Shown in pieces: positions 23,473-58,362 of a stretch of DNA of 64,000 bases (positions within the stretch are counted from its first letter, which is position 1; each line of letters begins with the position of its first letter). A model generated the notes under the pieces. That model ran no database searches and was not told the origin of the DNA. It saw only the letters and a program-made list of their open reading frames with translations. The translations under genes and the position numbers were made by a program. Origin of the DNA: an uncultured Candidatus Saccharibacteria bacterium. Its GTDB lineage: Bacteria > Patescibacteriota > Dojkabacteria > J137. The stretch lies in the NCBI GenBank assembly GCA_964437465.1, contig CAYTGI010000001.1, positions 5,614 through 69,613 of the forward strand, in the 5' to 3' direction.

Positions 23473-24336
23473 ATGAAGCACACTGGGCAAGAGTTAATCC
23501 AAAAAGCATACGAAATAAGAAAAGACATAATTGATATGTTGTTGGAAGCTGGCTCTGGACATTCAGCTGGACCTTTAGGAATGGCTGATATATTCACTGC
23601 TTTGTATTTTGAAGTATTAAATCATGATCCAAATAATCCAGGAATGCCAGAACGTGACAAAGTAGTTTTATCAAATGGTCATATTTGTCCAGTTTGGTAC
23701 GCTACACTTGCACATGCAGGGTACTTTCCAAGAGAAGAGCTAATGACTTTAAGAAAGATTGATTCACGATTACAAGGTCATCCAAATAGATTAGATACTC
23801 CAGGTGTTGAAAATTCTAGTGGTCCATTAGGACAAGGTTTTTCACAAGCGATAGGTATGGCATTAGCTGATATGTTAGAAGGTAGAAAATCAACAACCTA
23901 CGTTTTACTTGGAGATGGAGAATTAAACGAGGGTCAGTGTTGGGAGGCGTTTATGTTTGCTGGTAATTATCCACTGCACCATTTAACCGCAATTATAGAT
24001 AGAAATAATATTCAAATTGATGGTCATACAGAAAATGTTATGAGATTGGAGCCACTAAAAGAAAAAATTGAATCATTTAATTGGCACGTTTTAGAAATTG
24101 ATGGACATAATATGGAAGCGATTGTTGATGCTTGCAATCATGCTAAATCAGTTTGGGAAAGGCCTACAGCAATTATCGCGAATACAATTCCTGGAAAAGG
24201 TGTTGATTTTATGGAATGGAAACCTGAGTGGCATGGAAAACCACCAAAAGAAGACGAAGCAGAAGAAGCAGATAAGGAATTACTTGATACATTAAATTAT
24301 TTAAGAACATTGAGAGGGAATATTGAGTTTGAATAA
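23473..24336 (+). CDS. Transketolase, N-terminal (ThDP-binding) subunit
   Basis: GHSAGPLGMADIF and GDGELNEGQCWEA motifs. The ORF track starts at 23449 inside the palindrome; the ATG at 23473 (MKHTGQE...) is more plausible. Confidence 0.85.
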   Translation: MKHTGQELIQKAYEIRKDIIDMLLEAGSGHSAGPLGMADIFTALYFEVLNHDPNNPGMPERDKVVLSNGHICPVWYATLAHAGYFPREELMTLRKIDSRLQGHPNRLDTPGVENSSGPLGQGFSQAIGMALADMLEGRKSTTYVLLGDGELNEGQCWEAFMFAGNYPLHHLTAIIDRNNIQIDGHTENVMRLEPLKEKIESFNWHVLEIDGHNMEAIVDACNHAKSVWERPTAIIANTIPGKGVDFMEWKPEWHGKPPKEDEAEEADKELLDTLNYLRTLRGNIEFE

Positions 24337-24343
24337 CTCAATT

Positions 24344-24377
24344 TCCTCCCCCACCCCATCCTGCTAGGAGGGGAGCT
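24344..24377. repeat. GC-rich palindromic repeat unit (core CCTGCTAGGAGGGG)
   Basis: cctcccccaccccatcctgctaggaggggagc, a GC island in an AT-rich intergenic region; same family as the units at 26755 and 27241. Confidence 0.6.
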
Positions 24378-24397
24378 TATATAACAAAAAACTAAAA

Positions 24398-25390
24398 ATG
24401 ATACCGGACATGCGATTACAAAATGAGTGGTGGAATCCAGATAATCTGGAGAATAAACCTACGAGAGATGGGTATGGAGATTGTCTAGTTGAGCTCGGAC
24501 GAGAAAATAAGGATATAGTAGCTTTAAGTGCGGACTTAACAGAATCTACAAGAACTCATTACTTTGCTGAAGAATTTCCTGATCGTTTTTTTCAAACAGG
24601 TATTGCTGAACAGAACATGATGGGGATTGCTGCAGGACTTGCTTTAAATGGAAAAATTCCCTTCGCTGCAAGTTACGCAGTTTTTTCTCCTGGAAGAAAT
24701 TGGGATCAGTTTAGAGTAAGTGTTTGCTATTCAAAAGCTAATGTAAAAATAATTGGAGGTCATGCGGGGCTTTCAGTTGGACCAGATGGAGCTACTCACC
24801 AGGCACTTGAAGATATCGCAATCACAAGAGTATTACCAAACTTAACAGTTATTGTTCCAGCTGATTATGAACAGGCAAAAAAAGCAACTAGAGAAGCAGC
24901 TTTTATGGACGGACCGGTTTATATTAGAGTAAGTAGAGATAAAACTCCAAACTTTACATCTGTCGATACTCCGTTTCAAATTGGTAAAGGACAAGTTCTG
25001 TATAGTGGGGATGATGTAACTATTTTCGCTACTGGTTTAATGGTTCATAAAGCTCTACTCGCAGCAAGAGAACTCCAAGATGAAGGTGTAAGTTGTGAGG
25101 TAATTAATCTTCATACAATAAAACCAATAGATATAGATGCTGTAATAGCTTCAGTTCTTAAAACTAAAGCAGCAGTAACAGTAGAAGAACATCAGGTTAC
25201 TGGAGGTTTAGGAAGTGCAGTTTCTGAAGTGATCTCACAACAACACCCAGTTCCAATTGAAATGGTTGGGGTTAAGGATACTTTTGGGGAATCAGGAAAG
25301 ACGAATGAGCTTTTTGTAAAATACGGACTTGATGTGGAAAATATAAAAAATGCTGCAAAGACTTCAATTGCTCGAAAAGAAAATTCTTAG
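24398..25390 (+). CDS. Transketolase, C-terminal (pyrimidine-binding) subunit
   Basis: FQTGIAEQNMMGIAAGLA and GPDGATHQALEDIA motifs. Confidence 0.9.
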   Translation: MIPDMRLQNEWWNPDNLENKPTRDGYGDCLVELGRENKDIVALSADLTESTRTHYFAEEFPDRFFQTGIAEQNMMGIAAGLALNGKIPFAASYAVFSPGRNWDQFRVSVCYSKANVKIIGGHAGLSVGPDGATHQALEDIAITRVLPNLTVIVPADYEQAKKATREAAFMDGPVYIRVSRDKTPNFTSVDTPFQIGKGQVLYSGDDVTIFATGLMVHKALLAARELQDEGVSCEVINLHTIKPIDIDAVIASVLKTKAAVTVEEHQVTGGLGSAVSEVISQQHPVPIEMVGVKDTFGESGKTNELFVKYGLDVENIKNAAKTSIARKENS

Positions 25391-25399
25391 ATAAAAACT

Positions 25400-26725
25400 A
25401 TGGATAAACCTATTTTTAATTTCAAAGGCTCAATTGAGTTTGATGAAAGGGTAGTTGTTGCTGAAGGTAATAATCTAAGGAAATATATAGAAGTTCTTCA
25501 AGATATTGTTGCTTCAAAAGAATATTTAGAAGATGAGGCTTCATTATCCTTACCTGGAGATGAGGGTATCTTACATAGTTCTCTTCACTTAGCTAATGAG
25601 TATAAAGCAGAAAACCTTAAGTATGTTTTCGTTGTTGGGATTGGGGGTTCAAACTTAGGTACACAAGCGATTTACACTGCTTTAAGGGGGCAGTTTGATT
25701 ATTTAGAGCATACATTTCCAAAAATCATTTTTATAGATGCTGTGTCCTATAAAAATTTAAATCAGATTAACCGAGTTATTGATGATGAGGGAATTAATGC
25801 TGAAGATTTTGTAATTTTTGCGATCTCAAAATCTGGAGGTACTTCAGAAACTATCGCTAACACAAATTTTCTAATTCAAGTTTTAGATCAATATTTAGAA
25901 ATTGAACCAGTAAGGGATAGGCTAATTGTTATTACTGACGAGGGATCAAAATTCTGGGAAAGAGCGGAGAAAGAAAATATTGATAAATTACCAATTCCTA
26001 AAAAAGTAGGTGGAAGGTATTCAGTTTTTTCTAATGTAGGAATTGCTCCATTGAGCTTTATTTTTGGTGAAGACCTCAAAGATTTGATCCATGGAGCTAG
26101 AGTTGCGTTAGAAGATTGTATACAATTTGAGTTTGAATCTAATCCAGCTTTACAATCTGCTTTAGTTACTAATCTTTATCTTCAAAAAGGAACAAGAATT
26201 AATAATAATTTTTTCTTTGATCCAAATTTAGAATATGTTGGAAAATGGTATAGGCAGTTAATGGGAGAGAGTATTGGTAAAGAGAGAAGTATTAAGAATA
26301 AAATTGTTCATGCTGGAATAACTCCAATTGTGAGTATTGGTTCAACTGATCTACACTCAATGGCGCAACTTTATATTGGCGGACCAAATGATAAGTTAAC
26401 TAACTTCGTTTACGTTGATGAAGAAGATGATTTGAAGGTAAGTGAGTACGCTATAACAAAAGATTTAGTTGATGATTTAGAAGGCAAGTCTGCTTATGAA
26501 ATTAATAAAGCAATATATGAAGGAGTTAAAAAGGCATATATAAAAAACGAAAGACCATTTGTAGAGGTAGTTTTCCTTAGGGTAAGTTTATTTACACTAG
26601 GTTACTATCTTCAATTTAAAATGGTTGAGATGATGTATTTAGCAAATTTAATGAATTTAAATGCATTCGATCAGCCTAATGTTGAGGATTATAAGGAGGA
26701 GACTAGAAAATTGTTGAAAGGGTGA
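25400..26725 (+). CDS. pgi: Glucose-6-phosphate isomerase
   Basis: FVVGIGGSNLGTQAIY and ISKSGGTSET motifs. Confidence 0.85.
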   Translation: MDKPIFNFKGSIEFDERVVVAEGNNLRKYIEVLQDIVASKEYLEDEASLSLPGDEGILHSSLHLANEYKAENLKYVFVVGIGGSNLGTQAIYTALRGQFDYLEHTFPKIIFIDAVSYKNLNQINRVIDDEGINAEDFVIFAISKSGGTSETIANTNFLIQVLDQYLEIEPVRDRLIVITDEGSKFWERAEKENIDKLPIPKKVGGRYSVFSNVGIAPLSFIFGEDLKDLIHGARVALEDCIQFEFESNPALQSALVTNLYLQKGTRINNNFFFDPNLEYVGKWYRQLMGESIGKERSIKNKIVHAGITPIVSIGSTDLHSMAQLYIGGPNDKLTNFVYVDEEDDLKVSEYAITKDLVDDLEGKSAYEINKAIYEGVKKAYIKNERPFVEVVFLRVSLFTLGYYLQFKMVEMMYLANLMNLNAFDQPNVEDYKEETRKLLKG

Positions 26726-26754
26726 AGTCTATAAGATTCCAACGAAGCTAATAG

Positions 26755-26830
26755 TCTACCTCCCCTAACCCCTCCTGCTAGGAGGGGGAAGTTGAGTTTC
26801 CTCCCCTAGCAGGGGAGGACTAAGGTGGGG
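26755..26830. repeat. Cluster of GC-rich palindromic repeat units; the first 36 bp form a direct repeat with 27241-27276
   Basis: tctacctcccctaacccctcctgctaggaggggga ... cctcccctagcaggggagg ... taaggtgggg. Confidence 0.65.
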
Positions 26831-26880
26831 TAGAATGTTTTACTACACTTCTTTGTTTTACTTCCCCAATTTTTATCTTT

Positions 26881-27267
26881 ATGATTCCTTATTACAATAA
26901 AAGTAAACTGAATTTCTCCAAGAAAAAGAGGAAAGATGAAACCTATGCTGAAATGAAACTTTGGTCAGAATTAAAAGGAAAAAAATTACTGGGATATAAA
27001 TTTAGAAGACAATATGTAATAGATAAATACATAGTTGATTTTTATTGTATTGAACTAAAATTAATTATTGAGGTAGATGGGGCAAGTCATGATGAAGAAA
27101 AGTATGAGTATGATAAGAAAAGAGAAAATGAACTAAGAAGGTTAGGGAACACAGTATTAAGATTTACTGAATATGAAGTTAGGAGTGATATTGATAATGT
27201 TTTGGAAACTATTGTTTATTTAATAGAAAAGTTTGAACAATCTACCTCCCCTAACCCCTCCTGCTAG
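26881..27267 (+). CDS. DUF559-type (Vsr-like endonuclease fold) small protein
   Basis: 128 aa; YKFRRQYVIDKYIVDFYC...IEVDGASHDE...RENELRRLGNTVLRF; its last 8 codons (STSPNPSC) are encoded by the GC-rich repeat. Confidence 0.65.
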   Translation: MIPYYNKSKLNFSKKKRKDETYAEMKLWSELKGKKLLGYKFRRQYVIDKYIVDFYCIELKLIIEVDGASHDEEKYEYDKKRENELRRLGNTVLRFTEYEVRSDIDNVLETIVYLIEKFEQSTSPNPSC

Positions 27268-27395
27268 GAGGGGGACATGACTTTCATTAAATTACTCCCC
27301 TGCTAGGGAGGAAATATACTCACTTTATAAGTTCATGTTCAAATTGCTAGGAGGGGAAGCAATAATCTACCGAATACTCTCCTGCTAGAAGGGGG
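27241..27395. repeat. Cluster of four GC-rich palindromic repeat units; first 36 bp identical to 26755-26790
   Basis: cccctcctgctaggaggggg; ctcccctgctagggagg; ttgctaggagggg; ctcctgctagaaggggg. Confidence 0.65.
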
Positions 27396-27484
27396 ACGTA
27401 ATGTAGTCTAGTACTTTCTTAATAAATCCTTGTAAACTATCTCTATCCTCTTTAGAATGAAAATATATTATTAAAAATCTTCTT

Positions 27485-33077: not shown

Positions 33078-36000
33078 TTAAAGGAATTTAGAAATAATTG
33101 TTACAGAATGCTCATCATCAATATTTAAGATTCTTTCAATTGTTTTGCTATTACTGTTAGAGCCATATTTAATTCTCACTTTTATCGCAGATTTTGAATT
33201 ATTGTTTTCGTCAAAACAGCGTTTTAACTCTTTAAGCTTTTCTTCTTCTCTTATCTTTGTTATGTCAACCTCTAATGTTTTTGGTGGAACTAATAAGTTA
33301 GCTGGTTCAATTTTATCTACAATAATTGATTTCTCATCGTCCCTTTGGTTTACTGTACCTTCAATTATAAAAGGCCTAGCTTCAGCTACTAGTTCTAAAT
33401 CATTCAACTCTTTAAATGTTTTTGGAAACATTACCGCTTGGCAAGTACTCTCTAAATCTTCAATTTTTAGAATTGCCATCTGTTCGTTTTTAGCTTTAGT
33501 TCTTACGATTTTAATATTGCTAAACATACCTAGAATTTTTACTTTCTCACCAGACTTCTTATCATTAATTTCTGAAGTTTTAGTTAACGCATCTAGCAAA
33601 GAAGCCCATGTGAAATTTTGAAGAGGGTGAGTTGAAACAAACACTCCCATTAGATCTTTCTCCCACCCAACCTTTTCCTTATCAGTAGCTGGAATAAAAG
33701 AGGGAAATATTGTTTTCTCGATATTATTAGAACCATCATGTTCTGTACCAACATTAAATAACCCAGCCTGTCCTATTTCTTCAGCTTTTTCATTTTTGCT
33801 GACCTTTTCAAAAACCTCTTGAATGATTAGTAACAATCCATTTCTATCTCCAAACTCGTCTAGAGCACCAGCTTTAATTAAACATTCTACAGTACGTTTG
33901 TTTAGGTTTTTTGTTCCAACTCGATTAACGAAATCGTCAAAATGTTTAAAACTTCCGTTTTTATTTCTTTCATTAATTATTTTTTCACATACTTTTCTAC
34001 CTACGTTTTTAATAGCTCCAAGTCCAAATCGAATTCCATCGTCACCTTCAGGATTAAAGTAAACATCAGACTCATTAATGCTTGGTGGAAGGACTTTATA
34101 GCCAAGTCTTTTTGCCTCACCAATATCAACAACTATACGGTCAGTATTTTCAAGATCGGCATGCATTAAAGCAGTCATGAACTCAAGGGGATAATTACCT
34201 TTAAGATACGCACACCAATAAGCAACAGCAGCATAACTAGAAGCGTGTGCTTTGTTAAATCCATAAGAAGCAAAAGGTTCGAGTTGCTTCCAAATCTCAC
34301 TAGCTATCTCTTCTCCATACTGAGGGTAGTTTTCGACAAAATATTTTTTAAAATCTCCCTCTTTTTGCTTAAGAATATCTAGCTGTTTTTTCTTTAAAGC
34401 ATTTCGAATGACATCTCCTTCTCCAAGAGTAAATCCACCTAGTTTCATACAGATTTGAAGAAGTTGTTCCTGATAAACTGGATAACCTAAAGTGGCCTTT
34501 AGAATTGGTTCAAGTTCAGGAATTAGGTAATCAGCCTCTTTATTACCGTTCTTAATCTTAATGTAGTCAGGGATGTAAGCCATCGGTCCAGGCCTATAAG
34601 CAGCAGCCATAAAACATATATCCCCCATTGTTGTTGGTTGTAATTCCATTAGATACTTTTGCATAGGTGGAGACTCAAATTGAAATACACCTATAGTTTC
34701 TCCGTTTCTAAAAACATCCATTGCTTTTTGATCATAGACCTCGGGTGGTTCATCTGGGTTAACGTTAATTGTCGATAGATCTATTTTTTTACCATGTCTT
34801 TTCTCAACATATAAAATGCAGTCTTTTAAAATCGTAAGCGTTCTTAGACCAAGAAAATCAAATTTCATATAATCTAATTTATCTACCCACGTTCCGTCCA
34901 TCTGAGTAACAAGAAGATTTGGATCTTTTGTATCTTTTTGATAGGCCATAAAGTCATCAATTGGTCCTGGAGTAATTAAATATCCAGCAGCGTGAACTCC
35001 TGTATGTCTATTCAAGCCTTCAATTTTTTTAACAGTTTCTCCTAGTTTTTGAAGCCTAGGATCAGCATCAACCATTGCTTTAAATTCTGGATCAGTCTCC
35101 ATCATCTTCTCAAAAGTGAATGGTTTTCCAAAAAGGACTGTAACTTTTTTTGATAGTTTATCTGCAAGAGCTAAATCAATTCCCATAACCCTAGCTACAT
35201 CTCTAATCGCAGCTTTAGTTGCTAGTTTTCCAAAAGTTATTATTCCAGCAACAGCATCCTCACCATATTTTTCCCTTGCATAATCAATTAATTCTTCTCG
35301 CCTATCGTCCTGAATATCCATATCAATATCTGGTGGAGAAGCACGTTCTAAATTCAGGAATCTTTCAAAAACAAGCCCCCATTTTATTGGATCAACATTT
35401 GTAATCTCTAGGCAATATGAAGCTAAACTTCCTGCAGCACTACCTCTAACACCAACAACAATCTCTTGTTTTCTTGCATACTGCATTAGATCTCCAACTA
35501 CAAGAAAGTAATCGTTATATCCCATCTTATCTATAACCATAAGCTCGTATTCTAGTTGTTTTGTTATATCTTCAGGTAGTTCTTTCTTAATCTTTTTTAT
35601 TGATGGAATTTCACCATTTCCACAATATTTCTTGAATGCACCTTCATAAGTCTGCTTCTCAAGCTCTTCTTTAGCAGTTGAATCTTTAGGTAGATTCCAG
35701 TAATGAGGTTGAACTCGATCTGGCTTAAGACTTATCTTTTCAATTTTTTCACTAACCTTAAGTGTTTCTTCTAAAACTTCAGGAATATCAGCAAAATCCT
35801 CTTTTAATTCTTCTGGGGTTTTGATGTAAGTTTCAACATAACCATTCATTCCGCTTGGATCATCTATCATCTTTCCATCTCGAATACAGAATAAAACTTT
35901 CTGAGTCTCTTTATCATCAGCATTTAGAAAGTGTGCGTCAGTAGTAGCAATAATAGGGATATTATATTTCTTTGAATAGTCGTAAAGCTTTTTATTAACT

Positions 36001-36629
36001 TTGACCTGTTGTTTTAATGTTTCTAATTGTTCATCTTGTTCGCCAACTGGTAATGAATTTATAAGATTCGTGTCGAGTTCATCCTCGCATCTAATTCCAT
36101 TTCTCTGAATTTCAAGATAAAAGTCGTCTTTAAATAAACCATGTAGTTCTTTTAACCACCATTCAGCTTTTTCGTATTCACCTCTAGTAATGTGCCTAGA
36201 AAGCGGTCCTGCTAGACAAGCAGAAGTACAGATTAATCCTTCCGAATGTTTTTTAAGTAAACTTAAATCAATTCTAGGTTTATAGTACATCCCCTCAAGA
36301 TGCGAACGAGTTACTAACTTCACTAGATTTCTATATCCAACGCTGTTCTTAGCAATTAGAAGTAAATGGTAATATCTAATGCCATCAACATCAGATCTTA
36401 ATGTCATATCCTTAGGGGCTAAGTACATTTCACAACCGATAATTGGCTTAACATCAAAATCTTTCGACATCTTCCAAAATTCGGGAACTCCGTATAAAAC
36501 ACCATGATCAGTTATTGCAACAGCATCCATTCCATTCTCCTTAACTTTTTCAAAAAGTTTATCAGTACGATTAAGCCCATCTAGAAGGGAATACTGTGTA
36601 TGTACATGAAGGTGAACAAAATCAGCCAT
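33078..36629 (-). CDS. dnaE: DNA polymerase III alpha subunit
   Basis: 1183 aa; PHP domain HLHVHTQYSLLDG; polymerase core and an OB-fold-containing C-terminus. Confidence 0.95.
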   Translation of the reverse strand: MADFVHLHVHTQYSLLDGLNRTDKLFEKVKENGMDAVAITDHGVLYGVPEFWKMSKDFDVKPIIGCEMYLAPKDMTLRSDVDGIRYYHLLLIAKNSVGYRNLVKLVTRSHLEGMYYKPRIDLSLLKKHSEGLICTSACLAGPLSRHITRGEYEKAEWWLKELHGLFKDDFYLEIQRNGIRCEDELDTNLINSLPVGEQDEQLETLKQQVKVNKKLYDYSKKYNIPIIATTDAHFLNADDKETQKVLFCIRDGKMIDDPSGMNGYVETYIKTPEELKEDFADIPEVLEETLKVSEKIEKISLKPDRVQPHYWNLPKDSTAKEELEKQTYEGAFKKYCGNGEIPSIKKIKKELPEDITKQLEYELMVIDKMGYNDYFLVVGDLMQYARKQEIVVGVRGSAAGSLASYCLEITNVDPIKWGLVFERFLNLERASPPDIDMDIQDDRREELIDYAREKYGEDAVAGIITFGKLATKAAIRDVARVMGIDLALADKLSKKVTVLFGKPFTFEKMMETDPEFKAMVDADPRLQKLGETVKKIEGLNRHTGVHAAGYLITPGPIDDFMAYQKDTKDPNLLVTQMDGTWVDKLDYMKFDFLGLRTLTILKDCILYVEKRHGKKIDLSTINVNPDEPPEVYDQKAMDVFRNGETIGVFQFESPPMQKYLMELQPTTMGDICFMAAAYRPGPMAYIPDYIKIKNGNKEADYLIPELEPILKATLGYPVYQEQLLQICMKLGGFTLGEGDVIRNALKKKQLDILKQKEGDFKKYFVENYPQYGEEIASEIWKQLEPFASYGFNKAHASSYAAVAYWCAYLKGNYPLEFMTALMHADLENTDRIVVDIGEAKRLGYKVLPPSINESDVYFNPEGDDGIRFGLGAIKNVGRKVCEKIINERNKNGSFKHFDDFVNRVGTKNLNKRTVECLIKAGALDEFGDRNGLLLIIQEVFEKVSKNEKAEEIGQAGLFNVGTEHDGSNNIEKTIFPSFIPATDKEKVGWEKDLMGVFVSTHPLQNFTWASLLDALTKTSEINDKKSGEKVKILGMFSNIKIVRTKAKNEQMAILKIEDLESTCQAVMFPKTFKELNDLELVAEARPFIIEGTVNQRDDEKSIIVDKIEPANLLVPPKTLEVDITKIREEEKLKELKRCFDENNNSKSAIKVRIKYGSNSNSKTIERILNIDDEHSVTIISKFL

Positions 36630-36734
36630 TAGTTAGAAAATTTTTCTGTAAGTTTGGTTATTTTTACACAAAGATATTGAATTATCAATTTGGAATTAAT
36701 TAATAATTATTAATTAAAAAATTATTAATTAATA

Positions 36735-37988
36735 TCAGCCCATCACAGCTCTCATTGAAAGCCATAAATCATTTTTTGTACTAAATGCAGAAACATAAGA
36801 AGCTATATCGTAATAAGCATCTTTTCCAGTCTTTACAGGAACTCTTCTCATTTCGCCATTTTTGTTATACATAGTTATATTACTTCCAATCAACATAAAG
36901 TTTACCTTATTTTGTACTGCGAATCGTTTTACTTTGCCTTCAAAATTTACTTCTTTATTTTCTCTTCTTCCTAAAAGTATTCCTAACTCTTTAAGATCTA
37001 AAACAAAAACTATTTTCTCTACAAAATCTAATAGTACTAGATCAACCAAAGATGAAGATGATCCTGTTACTACCCATGTTTTCCCATGGTATTGTTGCAT
37101 AATGTGTTTAACAGTTGCGTATTGAACTAACTCGTTGTTTATATCTCCTAAAAAAATTGTATCTGACTCTTGGACTAATCTTTCAAGCTCATTCGCTCTT
37201 ACTCTTTTTTTTGTAGTTACATTATCTGTTAAATGTTCAAATGTAAAAATTGATAGATTAGTAGAGTAGTCTTTACAAGCTTTAATTACGTTGTCGTTTA
37301 TTTTATCGGTTTGGGCAATATACAAAAGGTTTCCATTCTTATTTAAGTGGGTCTTTTTATTTGGAACCCATAGTGCTTCTCTTTCACCAGGACCACAGTA
37401 CATCTGAATTTCTCTAGGTAGCTTTATATCAATTACTTGTGCGTTTTCTACTTTCGGAAATAAAATAGAAAAAGTAGAATCGGCAGAGTAATGAGGTGTA
37501 GGTTGATCAATTGCAACAATTGGAGCTCCAAAGTGCGCTATTCGCTTAATTATATCTTTAAACCGTTTTAATAATTTTTCTCCTTCAAACCCTGTTCCAA
37601 CTAAGGCTTCAATAATTACATCACCTTTTTTTACATCCTTTGCAAAAACATCTTGATTAACTTCTAAGTTTTCTTCTTCTTTTGCTCTTTCTAGGACATC
37701 TTCAAAGATATTTTTAGTTATATCATTTTCTATATATTGCTTTCTTGTGGCTAGGTAGACATTAACTTTTTTTACCCCCAAACAGCTTAAGTGAAAAGCT
37801 GTCGTTAATCCATCACCTGCATTTCCTGCTTTTCCACAAATTACTGAAAAAGTCTTTTCCTTGCCATATTTCGAAATAATTTTTTCAGCAATTAATCTTC
37901 CAACCTCATCGTAGAAAGCGATTAAATTCACCCCTAATGCTTCAGCATTTTTTAACATAATATCTGCCTCAGAAATGTGCTTTTCCAT
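36735..37988 (-). CDS. YjeF-N (NAD(P)H-hydrate epimerase) domain protein with a divergent C-terminal domain; possibly bifunctional Nnr
   Basis: ICGKAGNAGDG motif in the N-terminal half; the C-terminal half resembles YjeF-C only weakly. Confidence 0.5.
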   Translation of the reverse strand: MEKHISEADIMLKNAEALGVNLIAFYDEVGRLIAEKIISKYGKEKTFSVICGKAGNAGDGLTTAFHLSCLGVKKVNVYLATRKQYIENDITKNIFEDVLERAKEEENLEVNQDVFAKDVKKGDVIIEALVGTGFEGEKLLKRFKDIIKRIAHFGAPIVAIDQPTPHYSADSTFSILFPKVENAQVIDIKLPREIQMYCGPGEREALWVPNKKTHLNKNGNLLYIAQTDKINDNVIKACKDYSTNLSIFTFEHLTDNVTTKKRVRANELERLVQESDTIFLGDINNELVQYATVKHIMQQYHGKTWVVTGSSSSLVDLVLLDFVEKIVFVLDLKELGILLGRRENKEVNFEGKVKRFAVQNKVNFMLIGSNITMYNKNGEMRRVPVKTGKDAYYDIASYVSAFSTKNDLWLSMRAVMG

Positions 37989-38062
37989 AAACTAGTTTAC
38001 AAAAAACTTAACATAATGAATAGTAAGCTTTAAATATCATTTAATTATGATAGGATATAGAT

Positions 38063-39124
38063 ATGTTTGAGGAGATTTTTAATAATAATACACCACAAGA
38101 TTATATAATTTCTTTAATGATCATGGCTACTGGTGTAATTATTGGAACGTTTATTCAGTTTATCGTTGTAAGGAAATTTAGCCAGTTAACAAAAAAATCT
38201 CGAAATAGCTCTGATGATAGAATAATTAAGGCAATTGGGAATAGTCCGCTATTTTTTTCAATTTTGATTTCTCTTTTTCTAACATCGATATCACTTGGTC
38301 TAAGTGCTTCTTATAGATCTGGATTAAATAGTTTTTTGATTGCTACAGGGATATTAATCGGTACAAGTGTATTAGCTAGAATTTCTACTGTAGGTGTAGA
38401 AACATACCTACAAAATCAGAGTGGAGGTGGTGAATCTTCCTCGTTATTTAAAAATGTTGGTAGAATTATTACTTATGTTATTGGTCTATTAGTCATATCC
38501 CAAACTCTAGGGATTGATATAACAGCAGCTCTTACAGCACTAGGAGTTGGGGGAATTGCAGTAGCCCTTGCACTACAAGATACACTTTCAAACCTTTTTG
38601 CAGGTTTTTATATTATTGCTGCAAGAAAAATAGTACCAGGAGATTATATTGAACTTAGTTCTGGGGAGAGGGGATATGTTGAAGATATATCTTGGAGAAA
38701 CACTACTGTTAGAACTTTACAAAACTACATTATTATTATTCCAAACGCTATACTTTCAACTGTAATCTTAACTAATTATGATTTACCGATTACAGATGTA
38801 GCTATTTTAATGAATGTCGGTATTAGTTACGATTCTGATTTAGATTTTGCGGAGAAAATTACAATAGAAGTTGCTAGAGAAGTAATGAGGGAAGTTGAAG
38901 GAGGAATTAAAGACTACGAACCATTTATTAGATATAATGAGTATGGTGACTCAAGTATAAATTTTACAGTTATTATGAGAGGTAAGACTTATGTTGATAA
39001 ATATCTTATCAATCATGAATTTATTAAAAGACTTCATAAAAGATACAGACAAGAAGGAATTGAATTCCCTTTCCCTCAATTAGATGTAACATTGAAAAAT
39101 CCTGTTAAAATAGAGAAATCTTAA
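38063..39124 (+). CDS. Mechanosensitive ion channel, MscS family
   Basis: LALQDTLSNLFAGFYIIAARKIVPGDYIEL with three preceding TM helices. Confidence 0.85.
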   Translation: MFEEIFNNNTPQDYIISLMIMATGVIIGTFIQFIVVRKFSQLTKKSRNSSDDRIIKAIGNSPLFFSILISLFLTSISLGLSASYRSGLNSFLIATGILIGTSVLARISTVGVETYLQNQSGGGESSSLFKNVGRIITYVIGLLVISQTLGIDITAALTALGVGGIAVALALQDTLSNLFAGFYIIAARKIVPGDYIELSSGERGYVEDISWRNTTVRTLQNYIIIIPNAILSTVILTNYDLPITDVAILMNVGISYDSDLDFAEKITIEVAREVMREVEGGIKDYEPFIRYNEYGDSSINFTVIMRGKTYVDKYLINHEFIKRLHKRYRQEGIEFPFPQLDVTLKNPVKIEKS

Positions 39125-39771
39125 AGTCTATAACTATCTTTATTTTCAAGTGCTAATTTCATCTCAGAAATAAATCTATCTTTTGCATCCTCAATCGATA
39201 TCCCAGATATATTTCCTCCACCTGCACCAAAATGGCCTCCTGCTTTAAAACCAATAGATTCAAGTACTCGTTGAATTGAAACATTATCTCCAAAATTCCT
39301 AGTACGCCATCCAACCATTACATCTCCTTCAATATTGGTTTCAAACATTATCCCATAGTTATATCCAACAACTATTCTCATAAAAACTTCTACATAGTAT
39401 TTATGTATGCTTTTTAATCTCCAGTTTTTGCCAAATCTTTCTATTAAAATATCATCTTTTTCTTTATCAATGATCAATATAGTTGTTTCTATTTCAGGTT
39501 GAAACTCTGAGTTTTCTATTCCAAAAGCTAAAAATTCCATACTATCCTTATCGACGCTTAAGTTCACAACTTCGTCGTGCCTTGCTCCGTATTTAATCAT
39601 CTCCTCTGCAAAAGTATATATACCTGGATACATTTCATTTTTGAAATATCTAGAATCATCAATAAGTGCATAATACATCCATGTAGCTACATCTTCAGTT
39701 GGTTGTACATTTGAATCTTTAATTAGATGGTCAAAGATAATTTTAGTAGTACATATATCATCTTTTCGCAA
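39121..39771 (-). CDS. DHH-family phosphoesterase (NrnA-like), C-terminal DHHA1 portion
   Basis: GGHFGAGGG DHHA1 motif; first codon is a TTG adjacent to an A-run; forms one gene with 39723..40169. Confidence 0.6.
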   Translation of the reverse strand: MRKDDICTTKIIFDHLIKDSNVQPTEDVATWMYYALIDDSRYFKNEMYPGIYTFAEEMIKYGARHDEVVNLSVDKDSMEFLAFGIENSEFQPEIETTILIIDKEKDDILIERFGKNWRLKSIHKYYVEVFMRIVVGYNYGIMFETNIEGDVMVGWRTRNFGDNVSIQRVLESIGFKAGGHFGAGGGNISGISIEDAKDRFISEMKLALENKDSYRL

Positions 39772-40169
39772 AGCAATTGAAACATCATCATGAAAGCTAT
39801 TGTATGATGGTCAATAGATATAAATTTATCTAGACCTACTTTTTCCAAAACCTCATTATATTTATTTGTTAGAAGAAGAGGCCATGAGGAAGAATCTACT
39901 AAAATAATAAGGTCATATTCTTCCCAATTAACTTTTCCAACTTGAGACTGATCAATTTGATTAAGGTTAGGGAATGATTTTAATTTTTCAGGTATAGAGG
40001 AGAATATTACCAAGCTAGAAGATTTAGAAAACTCATTCTCAATCCACCATTTTATTGTTAACCCACTTCCTAAAGAATCCGGATCGACAGGTCTTGAACA
40101 TATAATCAGAATATTTTTAGAATCTTGAATCCTTTTATATATTTGTTTAGAGATATCTTTTAGATCCAT
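39723..40169 (-). CDS. DHH-family phosphoesterase (NrnA-like), N-terminal DHH portion
   Basis: DPDSLGSG, ILVDSSS and SIDHH motifs; the frame ends 20 codons after DHH while the next frame carries the DHHA1 half. Confidence 0.6.
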   Translation of the reverse strand: MDLKDISKQIYKRIQDSKNILIICSRPVDPDSLGSGLTIKWWIENEFSKSSSLVIFSSIPEKLKSFPNLNQIDQSQVGKVNWEEYDLIILVDSSSWPLLLTNKYNEVLEKVGLDKFISIDHHTIAFMMMFQLLCEKMIYVLLKLSLTI

Positions 40170-40720
40170 TAGTTAACTAGTATTTCAATAGTTTCAGTTT
40201 TAGTGATTGCACCTATCGATACCCTAGCTGTTATTGTATTTAACCCAACTTCTAGATATTCATCAATACCCCCTGGATTTTCTTCACTTATAGCCATTTC
40301 CTGCCTCATTATTGTTCTACCTGCCTTATTTATTTCCCAAGAAACATTAAACTCAAAGTTTTCTTGTCCCCAGGCATTATTATTTATATAAGGAGTAACC
40401 ATAATGTTGTAAAGGTTTAGCGGATCATCAATTACTTCATATTCAATTTCTAATCTTATATCTTCTTGGTCAGTTACAGAAATTCCGTCAGGAGTTTCTG
40501 CTGGTTTAAGATAGATAGCCCCAAAGGTTCCAAATCCTACAAGCATAATTGCTGCAACTGCTAGAGGTTTACCCATGAATCCATATCGAGGAGTTGTTAA
40601 ATATTTAATTTTTTTTCTCTGTTTATAAAGAATAAAGCCCATCACAGCTATTGAGATTATTGTAATTGCTAGGGCTCCTAGTAAAAGTGTGTATTGTTCA
40701 GAAGAAATAGTATTATCCAT
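40169..40720 (-). CDS. Hypothetical membrane-anchored protein
   Basis: 183 aa with two TM helices. Confidence 0.4.
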   Translation of the reverse strand: MDNTISSEQYTLLLGALAITIISIAVMGFILYKQRKKIKYLTTPRYGFMGKPLAVAAIMLVGFGTFGAIYLKPAETPDGISVTDQEDIRLEIEYEVIDDPLNLYNIMVTPYINNNAWGQENFEFNVSWEINKAGRTIMRQEMAISEENPGGIDEYLEVGLNTITARVSIGAITKTETIEILVN

Positions 40721-41339
40721 TATTGATTTGTAATGTATTTAAAAATTGTATGAATTCATTTAGTTCAGATTTATTTATATCAACATCATCCACATATAAT
40801 AACCCAGAATGAATGCAAATATTTTCAGCTATACATCCATAAAGTTGTCTAATCATTTCTTCACCTTCAAATGGCCAGTAGAATTCTGTATTTAAATTAT
40901 AACCTCCAATAGATCTTTGGTCATATGATCCTATTTGATTTGCTGTATGGTTTATCTCGGATCCTATTGATATATAATAATTTTCTTCTGACGAAGAATA
41001 AATCTCAAATATCTCACATTTCTCCCCAAGACATTCAAATGGAGTACCTACTGTGCTTCCAAATCTAGACATTACCTCGTAAGATTGGCCTATAGATATT
41101 ATTATACCTTCGGAAGTTGAAATTGTTTTTGGGTCTTCTACTGGAAGAAGTTCAACTTCAAGTGTTTTCTGAATTTCATCTGACGCATCAGCAGTTTGTA
41201 TCGAACTAACAGAAATATCCTCGTTTTTTTCTTTATTATTAATTAGAAAGGTTAAAGTCACAGTCATAAGTAACAAACCCAAAAAGGTTGTTATGAAAAT
41301 TCCGTAAAGCGCTCCAGTTGCAGATTTTCTTGGATCCAT
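40713..41339 (-). CDS. Hypothetical membrane-anchored protein
   Basis: 208 aa with one N-terminal TM helix and several Cys residues. Confidence 0.4.
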   Translation of the reverse strand: MDPRKSATGALYGIFITTFLGLLLMTVTLTFLINNKEKNEDISVSSIQTADASDEIQKTLEVELLPVEDPKTISTSEGIIISIGQSYEVMSRFGSTVGTPFECLGEKCEIFEIYSSSEENYYISIGSEINHTANQIGSYDQRSIGGYNLNTEFYWPFEGEEMIRQLYGCIAENICIHSGLLYVDDVDINKSELNEFIQFLNTLQINNG

Positions 41340-41391
41340 TGATTTATGATAATATAAGTTAGTATAAATAATTTCTTACTCCCTGTAAACG

Positions 41392-41667
41392 ATGAGGAAA
41401 GAGCTTGAAAGAAAATTGAGAGATAAAAAACTTAAAGTTGCTCCTGTTGATCAGGAAACATCGGAACTTATCAAAGAGCTAGCGAAGCTAACCGATGAAT
41501 ATCCATCAGATATAATTAAAGCAGCGATATTAATGCTATCAAAATCTCTAGGACATCAGGTAGTTTTAAGAGACCCTGATTCTGACTGGGAGTTAATTAT
41601 TAATGGTTTTAGGAGTTATAAAAGTAAATACAAGTTAAATCCAGGAAGTAATGAGCGATCAAGATAA
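41392..41667 (+). CDS. Hypothetical protein (91 aa)
   Basis: Open frame only. Confidence 0.35.
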   Translation: MRKELERKLRDKKLKVAPVDQETSELIKELAKLTDEYPSDIIKAAILMLSKSLGHQVVLRDPDSDWELIINGFRSYKSKYKLNPGSNERSR

Positions 41668-42079
41668 CTCCAAAGTCTCAGAAGTTGATGATCTAATTGA
41701 TGATTATGATCTTATTGATGAAGAATTATTAGAAGAGGAATTTTCAGATGGATATGAAGAAGGATATGAGGCAGCAAAAAAAGAAGTTACAGGTGAGTTA
41801 GAACCTAGAGCTGAAACTATAGCTGAAAGTAACTCAGATTCTATTTACTCAAAAAGAGAAGACACAAGAAGCCGATTAGCTATAATCTATACTGTTCTTA
41901 CTTTTATAATTTTCTTTTCAGGAATGCTTATTGCTGTTGTAGATGGATTAGCTAGAAATGTAAGTATAATTGAAAACCTTGAAGTAATTATTCCGTTGAT
42001 CTCCGGAGTTTTCTTAGGAACTTTAGGTTTTGTCCTTGGATATTACTTCCGAAAGGCAGAAAAGGATGATGTTGTATAA
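41651..42079 (+). CDS. Hypothetical acidic protein with a C-terminal membrane anchor
   Basis: Acidic N-terminus (DDLIDDYDLIDEE) and two C-terminal TM helices. Confidence 0.35.
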   Translation: MSDQDNSKVSEVDDLIDDYDLIDEELLEEEFSDGYEEGYEAAKKEVTGELEPRAETIAESNSDSIYSKREDTRSRLAIIYTVLTFIIFFSGMLIAVVDGLARNVSIIENLEVIIPLISGVFLGTLGFVLGYYFRKAEKDDVV

Positions 42080-42085
42080 TCCATC

Positions 42086-42514
42086 ATGTCGCTACAAATA
42101 TTAATCCCTAAAACATCAAAAAAGGTAAAACTACCATTTTTTGGGACATCAGTTAACGCTGGCTTCCCAAGTCCTGCTGATGACTTCGTAGAACGTAAGC
42201 TTGACTTGAATGAATATTTAATAAAGCATCCAGCCGCAACTTTTTTTGTTAGAGCAACAGGGGATTCAATGAAAAACATAGGGATTCATTCAGGAGATTT
42301 ACTTATTGTTGATAGATCCCTTGATGTTGTAGATGGAAAAATTGTTATAGCTGCAATTGACGGTGAATTTACTGTAAAAAGAGTAAAAAAGATTAATGGG
42401 GAGTTATTTCTTGTTCCTGAAAACGAGAACTATAAACCGATAAAGATAGATAGTGAGGATGAGTTTCAGATCTTCGGTGTTGTTAAGAATGTTATAAAGA
42501 ATTTGTTAAATTAA
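42086..42514 (+). CDS. umuD: UmuD-like S24 peptidase (LexA C-terminal domain fold, no HTH)
   Basis: ATGDSM Ser motif, a Lys in FTVKRVKK, a candidate Ala-Gly cleavage site (VNAGFP); 142 aa. Confidence 0.75.
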   Translation: MSLQILIPKTSKKVKLPFFGTSVNAGFPSPADDFVERKLDLNEYLIKHPAATFFVRATGDSMKNIGIHSGDLLIVDRSLDVVDGKIVIAAIDGEFTVKRVKKINGELFLVPENENYKPIKIDSEDEFQIFGVVKNVIKNLLN

Positions 42515-42650
42515 ATAAATATATATATTAGTGTATTTTTATAGCTGATTCTAAGATGATGGATGTAATGGCAGATGACAATTATGATTATGATAATTCA
42601 CCTGAAGAGAATGATCATGAAAGGCTAAGAGATCTTCTTGAAGGTGAAGA

Positions 42651-43457
42651 TTAATATAAAATAGTTAAAAACTTTAATTTTACTGCATCCTTTCCCACAA
42701 GCAACTCTTTAGTTATTTCTATTTTTTCTTTTTTCCGTAGGTATAAATACCTATTTAATACACATACCTGAGCAGCGTTTCTCATAATTACTGAAGCAGG
42801 ACAATGTACATATCTGGTAGGGTTTGCAGAAGCTTTGGCTCTGAAGTAGTTTGGAGCATAATAAGTTGTTAATCTTGTTTGTAACTCATTAAAAAAATCT
42901 AATGGACTGAGTTGAAAAGGCATATTCTCTAAAAGTTTATTAACTTTACCTCCTTGCGAAGAGATAATTCCATGCTCTCTTAAAATCTCAAGATAATAAT
43001 CATCTGACAACATACTAAATCTGAAGCCTGAATTTCTAAGCGGGTCAACAATAAGCGCTGCTTGATGTCCATAGTTTCCCGCAAACAAATGAATATGTCG
43101 TAAGAATGTACTTACTTCACCTGCGTAACTATCTGACACCTGGTTCAAAACTCCTTCTGTTCTAAATTCTTCAATAAAGGCAGGACCTAAAACAAGCGCG
43201 GCAGACATTGCATTCTGCCATCCAATATTATATTTAGATATCCAGTTATCTGCTACTGCAATCATACCTACAATTTCTCCTGTTAATCGTCTTACTATTT
43301 CATTACGATCTCCTGGGTAGTAAGTGTAATGAGCACCATTTTCTGTAAGAGTTCTAATATCCATACTCGGAACAACACCTTTTGACAAAGCATCATCTAA
43401 ATACTTTCTTTTTGAACCTTCATAGTTATCTGGCTTTTCCTCAAAAATGTCAGGCAT
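42651..43457 (-). CDS. Hypothetical protein (268 aa) inserted on the opposite strand between umuD-like and the Y-family polymerase gene
   Basis: Open frame with no recognisable motif. Confidence 0.4.
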   Translation of the reverse strand: MPDIFEEKPDNYEGSKRKYLDDALSKGVVPSMDIRTLTENGAHYTYYPGDRNEIVRRLTGEIVGMIAVADNWISKYNIGWQNAMSAALVLGPAFIEEFRTEGVLNQVSDSYAGEVSTFLRHIHLFAGNYGHQAALIVDPLRNSGFRFSMLSDDYYLEILREHGIISSQGGKVNKLLENMPFQLSPLDFFNELQTRLTTYYAPNYFRAKASANPTRYVHCPASVIMRNAAQVCVLNRYLYLRKKEKIEITKELLVGKDAVKLKFLTILY

Positions 43458-43488
43458 ATTGATATAATTAAGCTAGAAATTTTAACAG

Positions 43489-57796: not shown

Positions 57797-58288
57797 ATGA
57801 ATAACCATGAGGAAAATAACAACAAGGAAGGATTCACATTGATTGAGATCCTAGTTGTAGTTGCTTTGATTGCGATCTTAGCAACAATTACATTCATCGC
57901 TATTAATCCAGCGAGAAACTTTAGAGATACAAGAAATGCACAGAGAAGTTCAGATGTGTTGCAGATTTTAAATGCTGTTACTCAGTACACTTCAGAGCAA
58001 GGAAACGATCTTGACTCTCTTGCTGTAGCTTCAACTACTGTTTGGGGAACAGGATTAACTGCACTTCCACTATGTTCAGCAACTCCTGCGCCAATCGGAA
58101 CCACAGCTGATGTTTCTGTAGATATCTCTGCTGTATTAGTTCCTGATTACATTGTAGGTATTCCATCTGATCCTTCTGTAACAACTGCACCAGGAAATAC
58201 TGGATATACAATCTGTGAAGAAGCTAGTGGTAGAGTAACTGTTGCAGCACCAAATGCTGAATCAACAACTATTTCTGTTTCTAGATAA
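57797..58288 (+). CDS. Type IV pilin (prepilin with class III signal peptide)
   Basis: Leader MNNHEENNNKEG, then FTLIEILVVVALIAILA (G|F cleavage site, Glu at +5). Confidence 0.85.
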   Translation: MNNHEENNNKEGFTLIEILVVVALIAILATITFIAINPARNFRDTRNAQRSSDVLQILNAVTQYTSEQGNDLDSLAVASTTVWGTGLTALPLCSATPAPIGTTADVSVDISAVLVPDYIVGIPSDPSVTTAPGNTGYTICEEASGRVTVAAPNAESTTISVSR

Positions 58289-58362
58289 TGTTGCAAATTA
58301 GCTCCTATTTTTTTAAACTGAAAAGTAGGAGTTTATTTTAATTAATATATAAAATTACTGTT

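What the first reader, a model, noticed from the sequence alone, without database searches (positions are those of the whole stretch)
24344..27400. GC-rich palindromic repeat family (core CCTGCTAGGAGGGG) in PPP-operon intergenic regions; a DUF559 mini-gene flanked by 36-bp direct repeats
Seven or more copies of a short GC-rich hairpin-forming unit occur in three intergenic gaps: tkt-N/tkt-C, pgi/DUF559 and DUF559/xfp. The unit and its variants are CCCCTCCTGCTAGGAGGGGG, CTCCCCTGCTAGGGAGG, CCTCCCCTAGCAGGGGAGG and CTCCTGCTAGAAGGGGG. The genome is otherwise about 33% GC. An identical 36-bp direct repeat (tctacctcccctaacccctcctgctaggaggggga at 26755-26790 and 27241-27276) brackets the 128-aa DUF559 (Vsr-like endonuclease fold) ORF, whose last 8 codons are encoded by the repeat itself. 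The pattern resembles REP/MITE-like elements and suggests the DUF559 gene is, or was, a small mobile cassette targeting these repeats. The spacing is not CRISPR-like.
Basis: seen in the sequence. Interest (0 to 1): 0.65.

Follow-up and report, generated by a model that had tools for sequence, protein, structure and literature searches.

The report
DUF559 nuclease gene bracketed by triplex-type hairpins
The GC-rich hairpins are real and belong to a known but unexplained class of bacterial repeats (BoxC/PIT "intrastrand triplex motifs"), and across many phyla, E. coli included, these repeats bracket small DUF559 (Vsr-like) nuclease genes, which suggests that the nuclease is the repeats' long-missing partner enzyme.

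Summary
Seven GC-rich hairpin units lie in three gaps between 24.3 and 27.4 kb and nowhere else in the 64 kb. A 35-nt (not 36) exact direct repeat flanks a 128-aa DUF559 ORF.

Each intact unit is more than a hairpin. It is a pyrimidine arm, a loop, a purine arm, a ~3-nt linker and a mirror copy of the purine arm, with A or T opposite A. That is the published BoxC/PIT/TM intrastrand-triplex motif (Holder 2015), whose function is unknown and for which no mobility gene was found.

In 80 DUF559 loci fetched by protein alone, 56 carry such motifs within 300 nt (16-fold enriched). Typically one lies about 30 nt upstream on the coding strand and one lies on the opposite strand over the stop codon. 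E. coli ycjD shows the same pattern.

A syntenic Saccharibacteria relative has the cassette inverted. A more distant relative has pgi and xfp adjacent with no cassette. Gene-less doublets in the relative's genome match both cassette ends.

Best reading: a mostly sedentary selfish module, nuclease gene plus two triplex-motif ends, with gene-less derivatives. It resembles REP/RAYT or homing elements. The mechanism is inferred, not shown. The link was not found in the searchable literature.

The parts
24345..24375 (-). Solo, decayed triplex-type motif in the tktN/tktC gap (CCTCCCCCACCCCATCCTGCTAGGAGGGG on the + strand).
   Evidence: 73% identical to the 40-nt reference repeat. It folds weakly (-6.2 kcal/mol, z -0.8). 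The corresponding gap is 18 nt in L110/L095 and 6 nt in L111, with no motif in either.
26755..26789 (-). TM-a, an intact motif whose G-rich strand is the minus strand: CCCCTCCT-AGC-AGGAGGGG-TTA-GGGGAGGT (26758-26787). It is copy 1 of the 35-nt direct repeat and a spare copy of the cassette's 3' end.
26799..26836 (+). TM-b, an intact motif on the coding strand: TCCTCCCCT-AGC-AGGGGAGGA-CTA-AGGTGGGGT, followed by AGAAT. It is the 5' end of the cassette and ends about 50 nt before the ATG.
   Evidence: Together with TM-a it folds as two 8-bp hairpins plus an outer stem (-21.6 kcal/mol, z -3.1). It is 35/37 to 37/42 identical to the left ends of the gene-less doublets L107 and L088.
26881..27267 (+). 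DUF559 (Vsr-like PD-(D/E)XK) mini-nuclease gene, 128 aa. Its tail STSPNPSC* is encoded by the C-rich strand of TM-c.
   Evidence: PF04480, E 3.6e-35. PDB 3HRL, E 2e-34, and I-Bth0305I. AlphaFold pLDDT 91; best fold matches are 3HRL, 3R3P, PvuRts1I and Vsr. All family-invariant residues are present.
27241..27275 (-). TM-c, an intact motif (27244-27273) identical to TM-a. It is the 3' end of the cassette, overlaps the stop codon, and is copy 2 of the direct repeat.
   Evidence: It is 31/33 to 46/56 identical to the right ends of the doublets L107 and L088.
27295..27312 (+). Decayed hairpin CTCCCCTGCTAGGGAGG. It resembles TM-b but has the loop inverted and no third segment.
27343..27357 (+). Half unit (ATTGCTAGGAGGGGA): only the loop and the purine arm remain.
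27366..27396 (-). Decayed copy of the cassette's 3' end (TCTACCGAATACTCTCCTGCTAGAAGGGGGA).
   Evidence: 65% identical to the reference repeat. It does not fold significantly.
26726..27420 (.). The whole block that is extra relative to the relative L111, where the pgi stop is followed after a few bases by the xfp promoter-like site.
   Evidence: The xfp promoter-like site TTGTAA-17-TAGAAT (27430-27458) is conserved in L110 and L111.

Best explanation
The region holds one copy of a widespread two-part module. The module is a small DUF559 (Vsr-like PD-(D/E)XK) nuclease gene bracketed by two triplex-type hairpin motifs of the BoxC/PIT/TM class, in inverted orientation. TM-b lies on the coding strand upstream. 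TM-c lies on the opposite strand over the stop codon. Spare and decayed ends sit nearby (TM-a, three units downstream, and one in the tkt gap).

Each motif is a pyrimidine arm, a loop, a purine arm, a 3-nt linker and a mirror purine arm. As single-stranded DNA it can fold into a hairpin plus a reverse-Hoogsteen third strand.

I read the module as a selfish genetic element that is now mostly sedentary. The motifs are its ends. Gene-less doublets and solo motifs are its non-autonomous derivatives.

Inferred mechanism: the nuclease recognises or cuts at or between the motifs, for example at the quasi-palindromic centre GGTAGA...TCTACC of a doublet. Recombinational repair from a gene-bearing copy then copies the gene, or the motifs, into other motif sites (homing-like).

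Shown: the anatomy, the mirror rule, the cross-phylum gene-motif association, presence/absence and inversion among relatives, and deletion-derived doublets.

Inferred: that the protein acts on the motifs, and how the elements spread.
For: - Motif anatomy and mirror rule. 142 hairpins are followed by a perfect mirror arm against 43 followed by a direct copy. Opposite an A of the purine arm the third segment has A 39, T 40, C 3, G 1 (A/T against C/G, p 2e-19). The linker is 3 nt in 99 of 149 motifs.
- Same class as the published TM/BoxC/PIT, which forms a triplex in vitro.
- Association. In 80 loci fetched by protein only there are 115 perfect motifs within 300 nt of the gene (1.61/kb), 18 elsewhere (0.10/kb) and 0 in shuffles. 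56/80 loci are positive, against 2/29 control intergenic gaps (p 1.8e-9) and 0/20 viral-contig relatives.
- Geometry. The upstream motif ends a median 32 nt before the match. The 3' motif starts a median -6 nt from the match end. Both are present in 21/67 loci.
- Reverse test. Of 21 loci fetched by the 19-nt hairpin alone, 4 have DUF559 within about 200 nt (p 5e-5 against a generous 1% null), and 10-14 of the 22 hairpins carry the mirror arm.
- E. coli K-12 ycjD ends inside a motif remnant and has a canonical BoxC about 170 nt downstream.
- Relatives. L111 lacks both cassette and motifs. L110 has the cassette inverted.
- Doublets L088 and L107 match both cassette ends, including about the last 12 nt of the ORF.
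- The fold is close to a homing endonuclease.
Against: - No biochemical link between any DUF559 protein and the motifs exists.
- 24/80 DUF559 loci have no perfect motif, and only 21/67 show the full two-motif geometry.
- Identical proteins always sit in one context, and ycjD is single copy. There is therefore no sign of recent transposition.
- No target-site duplication was seen.
- Within this 64 kb the motifs occur only next to the gene, so dispersal in this genome is not shown.
- Triplex formation was not detected in vivo in E. coli, according to the cited paper.
- E. coli lineages without ycjD still carry 1-15 motifs.
- A 120-aa nuclease cannot by itself carry out transposition.
Confidence: 0.55

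Rival explanations
1. Host-side maintenance. DUF559 is a domesticated structure-specific nuclease that processes hairpin or triplex DNA formed by the motifs, for example at stalled forks. It is kept next to motifs because it co-evolves with them. It protects the genome rather than spreading the repeats.
For: The gene is single copy, has a stable context and diverges like a vertically inherited gene. The family fold is that of the repair nuclease Vsr. The motifs are reported to be linked with genomic instability.
Against: It does not explain why the ORF is physically fused to a motif at its 3' end, why a second motif sits at a fixed distance upstream, or why gene-less doublets keep both cassette ends. 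Motifs persist in lineages without the gene.
Confidence: 0.15
2. Cis-acting expression signals. The hairpins are terminators, insulators or mRNA-stabilising structures around a potentially toxic nuclease gene and within the pentose-phosphate operon.
For: The positions are intergenic, in a co-oriented operon. The hairpins are stable.
Against: No T-run follows any unit, and none is called terminator-like. The mirror third arm with A/T equivalence has no role in a terminator. The cited work reports no promoter or terminator activity for PIT elements in E. coli. Relatives run the same operon without them.
Confidence: 0.08
3. Passive co-localisation. The motifs are recombination hot spots that trap foreign DNA, and small orphan Vsr-like genes are merely frequent passengers.
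For: Motif loci are reported as more rearranged among E. coli strains. In E. coli, ycjD plus BoxC replaces the eef operon at one locus.
Against: The geometry is specific and repeated, the two motif types are assigned to the two ends, and the stop codon lies inside the motif. In the syntenic loci L110 and L111 (32 kb) the only motifs found are the two flanking the DUF559 gene, and no other gene is bracketed by them. Viral DUF559 relatives lack motifs.
Confidence: 0.1
4. Recombination cassette. The unit is the gene plus one ~80-nt composite (3'-end motif abutting 5'-end motif). It enters and leaves by recombination between copies of the composite (Campbell-type, integron-like), which leaves direct repeats on both sides.
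For: Direct repeats of 16 nt or more flank the gene in 34/83 loci (L020 162 nt, L001 78 nt, the window 35 nt). Full composites lie on both sides in L001.
Against: No integrase or recombinase gene is among the immediate neighbours. Gene-less doublets have the opposite order, 5' end then 3' end. Tandem clusters of doublets also produce direct repeats.
Confidence: 0.1

Closest known systems
BoxC / PIT / TM 'TMECO' intrastrand triplex motifs (Holder et al. 2015, PMC4666352; earlier Hoyne and Maher 2000, as cited there)
   Same: Same architecture: C-rich arm, loop of 3-6 nt, G-rich arm, 3-nt second loop (often TTA) and a second, mirror G-rich arm. The motifs are intergenic, often occur as inverted pairs of two types, and are widespread.
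   Different: The arm sequences differ: CCCCTCCT and TCCTCCCCT here, CCCTCNCCC in TMECO. The host is an AT-rich Saccharibacteria-like genome. Here one motif overlaps a gene end. The paper reports no associated mobility gene and never mentions DUF559 or ycjD.
REP/REPIN elements and their RAYT transposases
   Same: Short GC-rich palindromic repeats. A single-copy, vertically inherited gene is flanked by the repeats. Doublets act as the non-autonomous form. The properties of RAYTs are from my own knowledge.
   Different: The associated protein is a PD-(D/E)XK Vsr-like nuclease, not an HUH tyrosine transposase. The repeats carry a mirror third arm.
Vsr-like (EDxHD) homing endonucleases such as I-Bth0305I (PDB 3R3P)
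   Same: Related nuclease fold. Presence/absence polymorphism at a fixed site. Gene-less sites flanked by the same sequences.
   Different: The gene is not in an intron or intein, nor in a conserved host gene. The putative target is a dispersed repeat. Cleavage is untested.
MITEs derived from insertion sequences
   Same: Two inverted ends. Internally deleted gene-less copies keep both ends and a stub of the ORF.
   Different: There is no recognisable transposase, no target-site duplication and no multi-copy identical elements.

Membership tests
DUF559 / Vsr-like PD-(D/E)XK nuclease | Match to Pfam PF04480 above the curated cut-off. | tested here: met
   120.6 bits against a cut-off of 20.6.
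DUF559 / Vsr-like PD-(D/E)XK nuclease | Fold like solved family members. | tested here: met
   Model pLDDT 91. Matches: 3HRL E 8e-9, 3R3P E 7e-5, 1VSR prob 0.99. By sequence, 3HRL E 2e-34.
DUF559 / Vsr-like PD-(D/E)XK nuclease | Family-invariant acidic, His and Arg residues present. | tested here: met
   E24, W28, F41, R43, Q44, D53, E64, D66, G67, D78 and R81 are invariant, and H70 is at least 90% conserved, in 48 homologues numbered on the window protein. Their catalytic role is inferred from the family.
DUF559 / Vsr-like PD-(D/E)XK nuclease | Nuclease activity. | not testable with these tools
   Needs biochemistry.
BoxC/PIT/TM intrastrand triplex motif | C-rich arm, short loop, complementary G-rich arm. 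| tested here: met
   8-9 bp perfect stems with 3-nt loops in TM-a, TM-b and TM-c.
BoxC/PIT/TM intrastrand triplex motif | A second loop of about 3 nt, then a mirror G-rich arm obeying G*G, A*A and T*A triads. | tested here: met
   TTA + GGGGAGGT, and CTA + AGGTGGGGT. The family-wide A/T rule is shown.
BoxC/PIT/TM intrastrand triplex motif | Strict TMECO consensus CCCTCNCCC-N3-6-GGGNGAGGG-N3-GGGNGAGGG. | tested here: not met
   The arm sequences differ. This is a member of the broader G/C-rich class II motifs, not of TMECO proper.
BoxC/PIT/TM intrastrand triplex motif | Inverted pairs made of two motif types. | tested here: met
   TM-b and TM-c here, L108, and the doublets L088 and L107.
BoxC/PIT/TM intrastrand triplex motif | Actual triplex formation. 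| not testable with these tools
   Shown in vitro only for E. coli motifs, and not detected in vivo.
REP/RAYT | The associated gene is an HUH Y1 transposase. | tested here: not met
   Only DUF559 and MTES_1575 hits.
REP/RAYT | A single-copy gene flanked by the repeats, with repeats dispersed elsewhere. | tested here: inconclusive
   The gene is single-context. Dispersal is seen in the relative's genome and in L108, but not in this 64 kb.
MITE / insertion sequence | Gene-less copies sharing both ends with the full element. | tested here: met
MITE / insertion sequence | Target-site duplication and a known transposase. | tested here: not met
   No duplication at the doublet flanks. No transposase domain.
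Homing endonuclease gene | Filled and empty alleles of the same site. | tested here: met
   The pgi-xfp gap is empty in L111 and filled in the window and L110. Doublets compare with full units.
Homing endonuclease gene | Cleavage of the empty site by the encoded protein. | not testable with these tools
   Needs an assay.
CRISPR array | Regularly spaced identical repeats with unique spacers. | tested here: not met
   Spacings of 2414, 486 and 121 nt, with genes in between. No Rfam CRISPR match at the units.
Intrinsic terminator | GC hairpin followed by a T-run. | tested here: not met
   None of the units is called.
Known structured RNA (Rfam) | Match at the gathering score. | tested here: not met
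   Only tRNAs matched in the window and in 21 loci.

The most novel reading that the evidence does not exclude
Small DUF559 nucleases, E. coli YcjD included, are the cognate enzymes of the BoxC/PIT/TM intrastrand-triplex repeats. They recognise or cut the folded motif or the doublet centre, and so create, spread or maintain these repeats. This would be a repeat-nuclease partnership parallel to REP/RAYT, but built on a PD-(D/E)XK nuclease and a triplex-capable DNA motif, and spanning many bacterial phyla.
Probability: 0.35. Interest if true: 0.85.

Novelty: new variant of a known kind. Interest (0 to 1): 0.7.

Why it matters
BoxC/PIT/TM repeats have been known since the 1990s. They number thousands of copies across bacteria and form triplexes in vitro. 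Yet they have no known function, origin or mobilising enzyme. DUF559 is a very large family, including E. coli ycjD, with no known role.

A consistent physical link between the two turns both unknowns into one testable question in a model organism: does YcjD bind or cut BoxC DNA, and does its presence drive motif gain?

The link would also explain many odd proline/glycine-rich tails on annotated DUF559 proteins as translated repeat sequence. It would further flag these cassettes as markers of insertion, inversion and replacement events inside otherwise conserved operons.

Tried and rejected
- Rfam at gathering and permissive thresholds returned only tRNAs. A sub-threshold miRNA-like hit is chance.
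- CRISPR and terminator readings were rejected.
- I looked for the window's own genome. The exact-protein look-up found no record. The 19-mer scan of genome contigs did not return its contig. The 'whole genome' test was therefore done only on a relative.
- The first protein alignment was too diverse for locus scanning.
- A phage origin is unlikely: only 20 relatives in 2.9 million viral contigs, and none carries motifs.
- Recent multi-copy spread is unsupported: identical proteins P0067 and P0019 are always in one context.
- Recent cross-phylum transfer does not explain the identical 19-nt hairpins. The neighbouring proteins are only 38-53% identical. Structural constraint and a small sequence space are likelier.
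- Watson-Crick pairing of the third arm fails for longer asymmetric arms. The mirror rule fits.
- Defence and phage family libraries gave only weak, generic nuclease hits.
- Literature searches by sequence string, DUF559, ycjD, COG2852/PF04480 and 'intrastrand triplex' found no paper that links the gene and the motif.
Full report
**Observation.** The window is 32.4% GC. The core CCTGCTAGGAGGGG, with up to 2 mismatches, occurs 6 times against 0.12 expected. The reverse-loop variant occurs 6 times against 0.21 expected. All copies lie in three gaps: tktN/tktC (24336-24375), pgi/DUF559 (26750-26836) and DUF559/xfp (27236-27396). No other GC-rich island of this kind exists in the 64 kb. Pfam confirms the gene calls. 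These include a 128-aa DUF559 ORF at 26881-27267 (E 3.6e-35) within a g6pd-6pgd-tal-tktN-tktC-pgi-DUF559-xfp row. The direct repeat is 35 nt, not 36: 26755-26789 equals 27241-27275. It encodes the last eight codons, STSPNPSC, and the stop.

**Anatomy.** The three intact units are not plain hairpins. On the strand that carries the G-rich arm they read:
- CCCCTCCT-AGC-AGGAGGGG-TTA-GGGGAGGT, which is TM-a at 26758-26787 and TM-c at 27244-27273, both on the minus strand.
- TCCTCCCCT-AGC-AGGGGAGGA-CTA-AGGTGGGGT, which is TM-b at 26799-26831 on the plus strand.

Each is a pyrimidine arm, a 3-nt loop, the complementary purine arm, a 3-nt linker and then the mirror image of the purine arm. TM-a plus TM-b fold as DNA into two 8-bp hairpins with an outer stem (-21.6 kcal/mol, z -3.1). 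The units at 24345-24375, 27295-27312, 27343-27357 and 27366-27396 are decayed. None is followed by a T-run. No Rfam family matches.

- 142 pyrimidine/purine hairpins are followed within 0-7 nt by a perfect mirror copy of the purine arm. Only 43 are followed by a direct copy.
- The linker is 3 nt in 99 of 149 motifs.
- Where the purine arm has an A, the third segment has A 39 times, T 40, C 3 and G 1 among distinct motifs (p 2e-19 for A/T against C/G).

G opposite G, and A or T opposite A, is the rule of the antiparallel purine-motif DNA triplex. Watson-Crick pairing of the third arm does not fit the longer asymmetric examples.

**Known class.** This architecture is published as BoxC, PIT elements or 'TM/TMECO' (Holder et al. 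2015, PMC4666352).
- The consensus is CCCTCNCCC-N3-6-GGGNGAGGG-N3-GGGNGAGGG, with a second loop of TTA or CCG.
- There are 23 copies in E. coli K-12 and 3610 in 262 proteobacteria.
- Inverted pairs always combine the two types.
- A triplex forms in vitro but was not detected in vivo.
- No promoter or terminator activity was found.
- The authors 'never found' mobility genes nearby.

That paper does not mention endonuclease, ycjD or DUF559. The window motifs fit the class but not the strict TMECO consensus.

**Link to DUF559.** Many DUF559 homologues carry termini such as PLxxGEG or TPSPxP. One 49%-identical homologue ends STSPNPS..., like the window protein. Its locus, L001, has the same ~80-nt two-hairpin composite on both sides of the gene.

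I fetched 80 DUF559 loci from metagenomes by protein pattern only.
- They hold 115 perfect motifs within 300 nt of the gene (1.61/kb) and 18 elsewhere (0.10/kb). Shuffled loci hold none. 56 of the 80 loci are positive.
- Control intergenic gaps in the same loci are positive in 2 of 29 cases (p 1.8e-9).
- None of 20 viral-contig relatives is positive.
- The usual geometry is a motif on the coding strand ending a median 32 nt before the match, and a motif on the opposite strand starting a median 6 nt before the match end. The ORF therefore runs into the C-rich strand. Both motifs are present in 21 of 67 loci with both flanks.
- Direct repeats of 16 nt or more flank the gene in 34 of 83 loci.

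*Reverse test.* The 19-nt hairpin alone retrieved 21 loci from many phyla. Four of them have DUF559 within about 200 nt (p 5e-5 against a generous null). Of the 22 hairpins, 10-14 carry the mirror arm, which was not part of the query.

*E. coli.* In K-12, ycjD ends ...SPSP* in a motif remnant. It is followed by a duplicated 3' fragment of itself and then a canonical BoxC before fabI.

**Relatives.** L095/L110 comes from a Candidatus Saccharibacteria MAG and is syntenic with the window. Housekeeping proteins are 67-91% identical and DUF559 is 69% identical. There the cassette lies between pgi and xfp on the opposite strand, with the same two motifs. The tktN/tktC gap is 18 nt and carries no motif. 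L111 (pgi 56% identical) has pgi and xfp 53 nt apart, no DUF559, no motif in 17 kb and a 6-nt tkt gap. The xfp promoter-like site is conserved in all three. The block 26726-27420 is therefore an insertion relative to L111.

Two other contigs of the L110 MAG carry gene-less doublets: a 5' motif, 8-25 nt, then a 3' motif. These align to both cassette ends (35/37 to 46/56 identical), including about the last 12 nt of the ORF. That marks them as internally deleted derivatives. A gammaproteobacterial locus, L108, has 8 motifs in 8 kb, and its DUF559 shows the canonical pair.

**Limits on mobility.**
- Identical proteins P0067 and P0019 occur on about 24 contigs each, always in one context.
- ycjD is single copy in 3378 of 5426 E. 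coli genomes.
- DUF559 proteins next to identical hairpins in different phyla are only 38-53% identical.
- No target-site duplication was seen.

The element behaves like a sedentary, vertically inherited gene with occasional gain, loss and inversion. It resembles a RAYT more than an insertion sequence.

**Protein.** The AlphaFold model (pLDDT 91) best matches 3HRL (a DUF559 protein), the homing endonuclease I-Bth0305I, PvuRts1I/AbaSI and Vsr. All family-invariant residues are present. Defence, phage and NCBI libraries add nothing specific.

**E. coli hints.** According to PMC12817139, ycjD occupies the sapF-fabI site in phylogroups A, B1 and C, in place of the eefRABCD operon found in B2, D, E, F and G. 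CFT073 (eef+, ycjD-) has no motif in the 50 kb around fabI. Holder's tables give 19-30 motifs in A/B1/C strains, 1-2 in B2 and 6-15 in D/E/F. This is a suggestive correlation, but it is confounded by phylogeny.

**Interpretation.** The best-supported reading is a module made of a Vsr-like nuclease gene and two inverted triplex-type ends, with gene-less derivatives. I favour a homing-like mechanism. The nuclease would cut at a doublet or motif, and recombinational repair from a gene-bearing copy would follow. This reading rests on four points:
- the fold relation to a homing endonuclease;
- the filled and empty sites;
- the quasi-palindromic doublet centre;
- the two orientations seen at one site.

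All of that is inference. Four rivals remain open at lower weight: a host repair role, expression signals, passive capture at recombination hot spots, and a Campbell-type cassette.

I found no paper linking DUF559 to these motifs in the searchable library. Subscription literature could not be searched.

Noticed in passing
window 57797-58827: Two tandem paralogous type IV pilin-like genes (N_methyl motif) share a 178-nt, 97% identical direct repeat. They lie next to a PilB/T2SSE ATPase gene at 58894-60156.
   Followed up: partly
window 27430-27458: A promoter-like site, TTGTAA-17-TAGAAT, lies upstream of xfp. It is conserved in the syntenic loci L110 and L111, and it marks the downstream edge of the inserted block.
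   Followed up: partly
L109 (E. coli K-12, NC_000913 1346000-1353000), 5040-5410: Downstream of ycjD there is a duplicated fragment of the ycjD 3' end, then a canonical BoxC motif before fabI. ycjD itself ends inside a motif remnant.
   Followed up: partly
L148 (E. coli CFT073) 34542-44154, compared with L109: The sapF-fabI site holds either ycjD plus BoxC (3378 of 5426 genomes) or the five-gene eef efflux operon. The breakpoint on the fabI side lies next to the BoxC motif.
   Followed up: partly
L110 1426-1923 and 8044-9282: The syntenic Saccharibacteria relative has an extra hydrolase gene between g6pd and 6pgd. It also has a 412-aa ORF with no Pfam match between DUF559 and xfp. Both are absent from the window.
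   Followed up: no
L112-L119, about 25 nt downstream of the DUF559 gene: In this lineage the motif-flanked DUF559 gene sits directly upstream of a 90-aa ORF and an AbiEii toxin-like gene. This suggests a small island of selfish or defence genes.
   Followed up: no
L006 9700-10830 (Parcubacteria GW2011_GWA2_49_9): Both flanks of the DUF559 gene are packed with several different GC-rich hairpin families over about 300 nt each. These include a perfect long palindrome, CAGCCGTAGTTTGCCGCAAACTACGGCTGG.
   Followed up: no
window 26803-26815 compared with 27297-27309: The second hairpin has its 3-nt loop inverted between copies (AGC against GCT) while the stem is kept. This is as expected from recombination or template switching within a palindrome. 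L001 shows the same effect (TTGGCAA against TTGCCAA).
   Followed up: no
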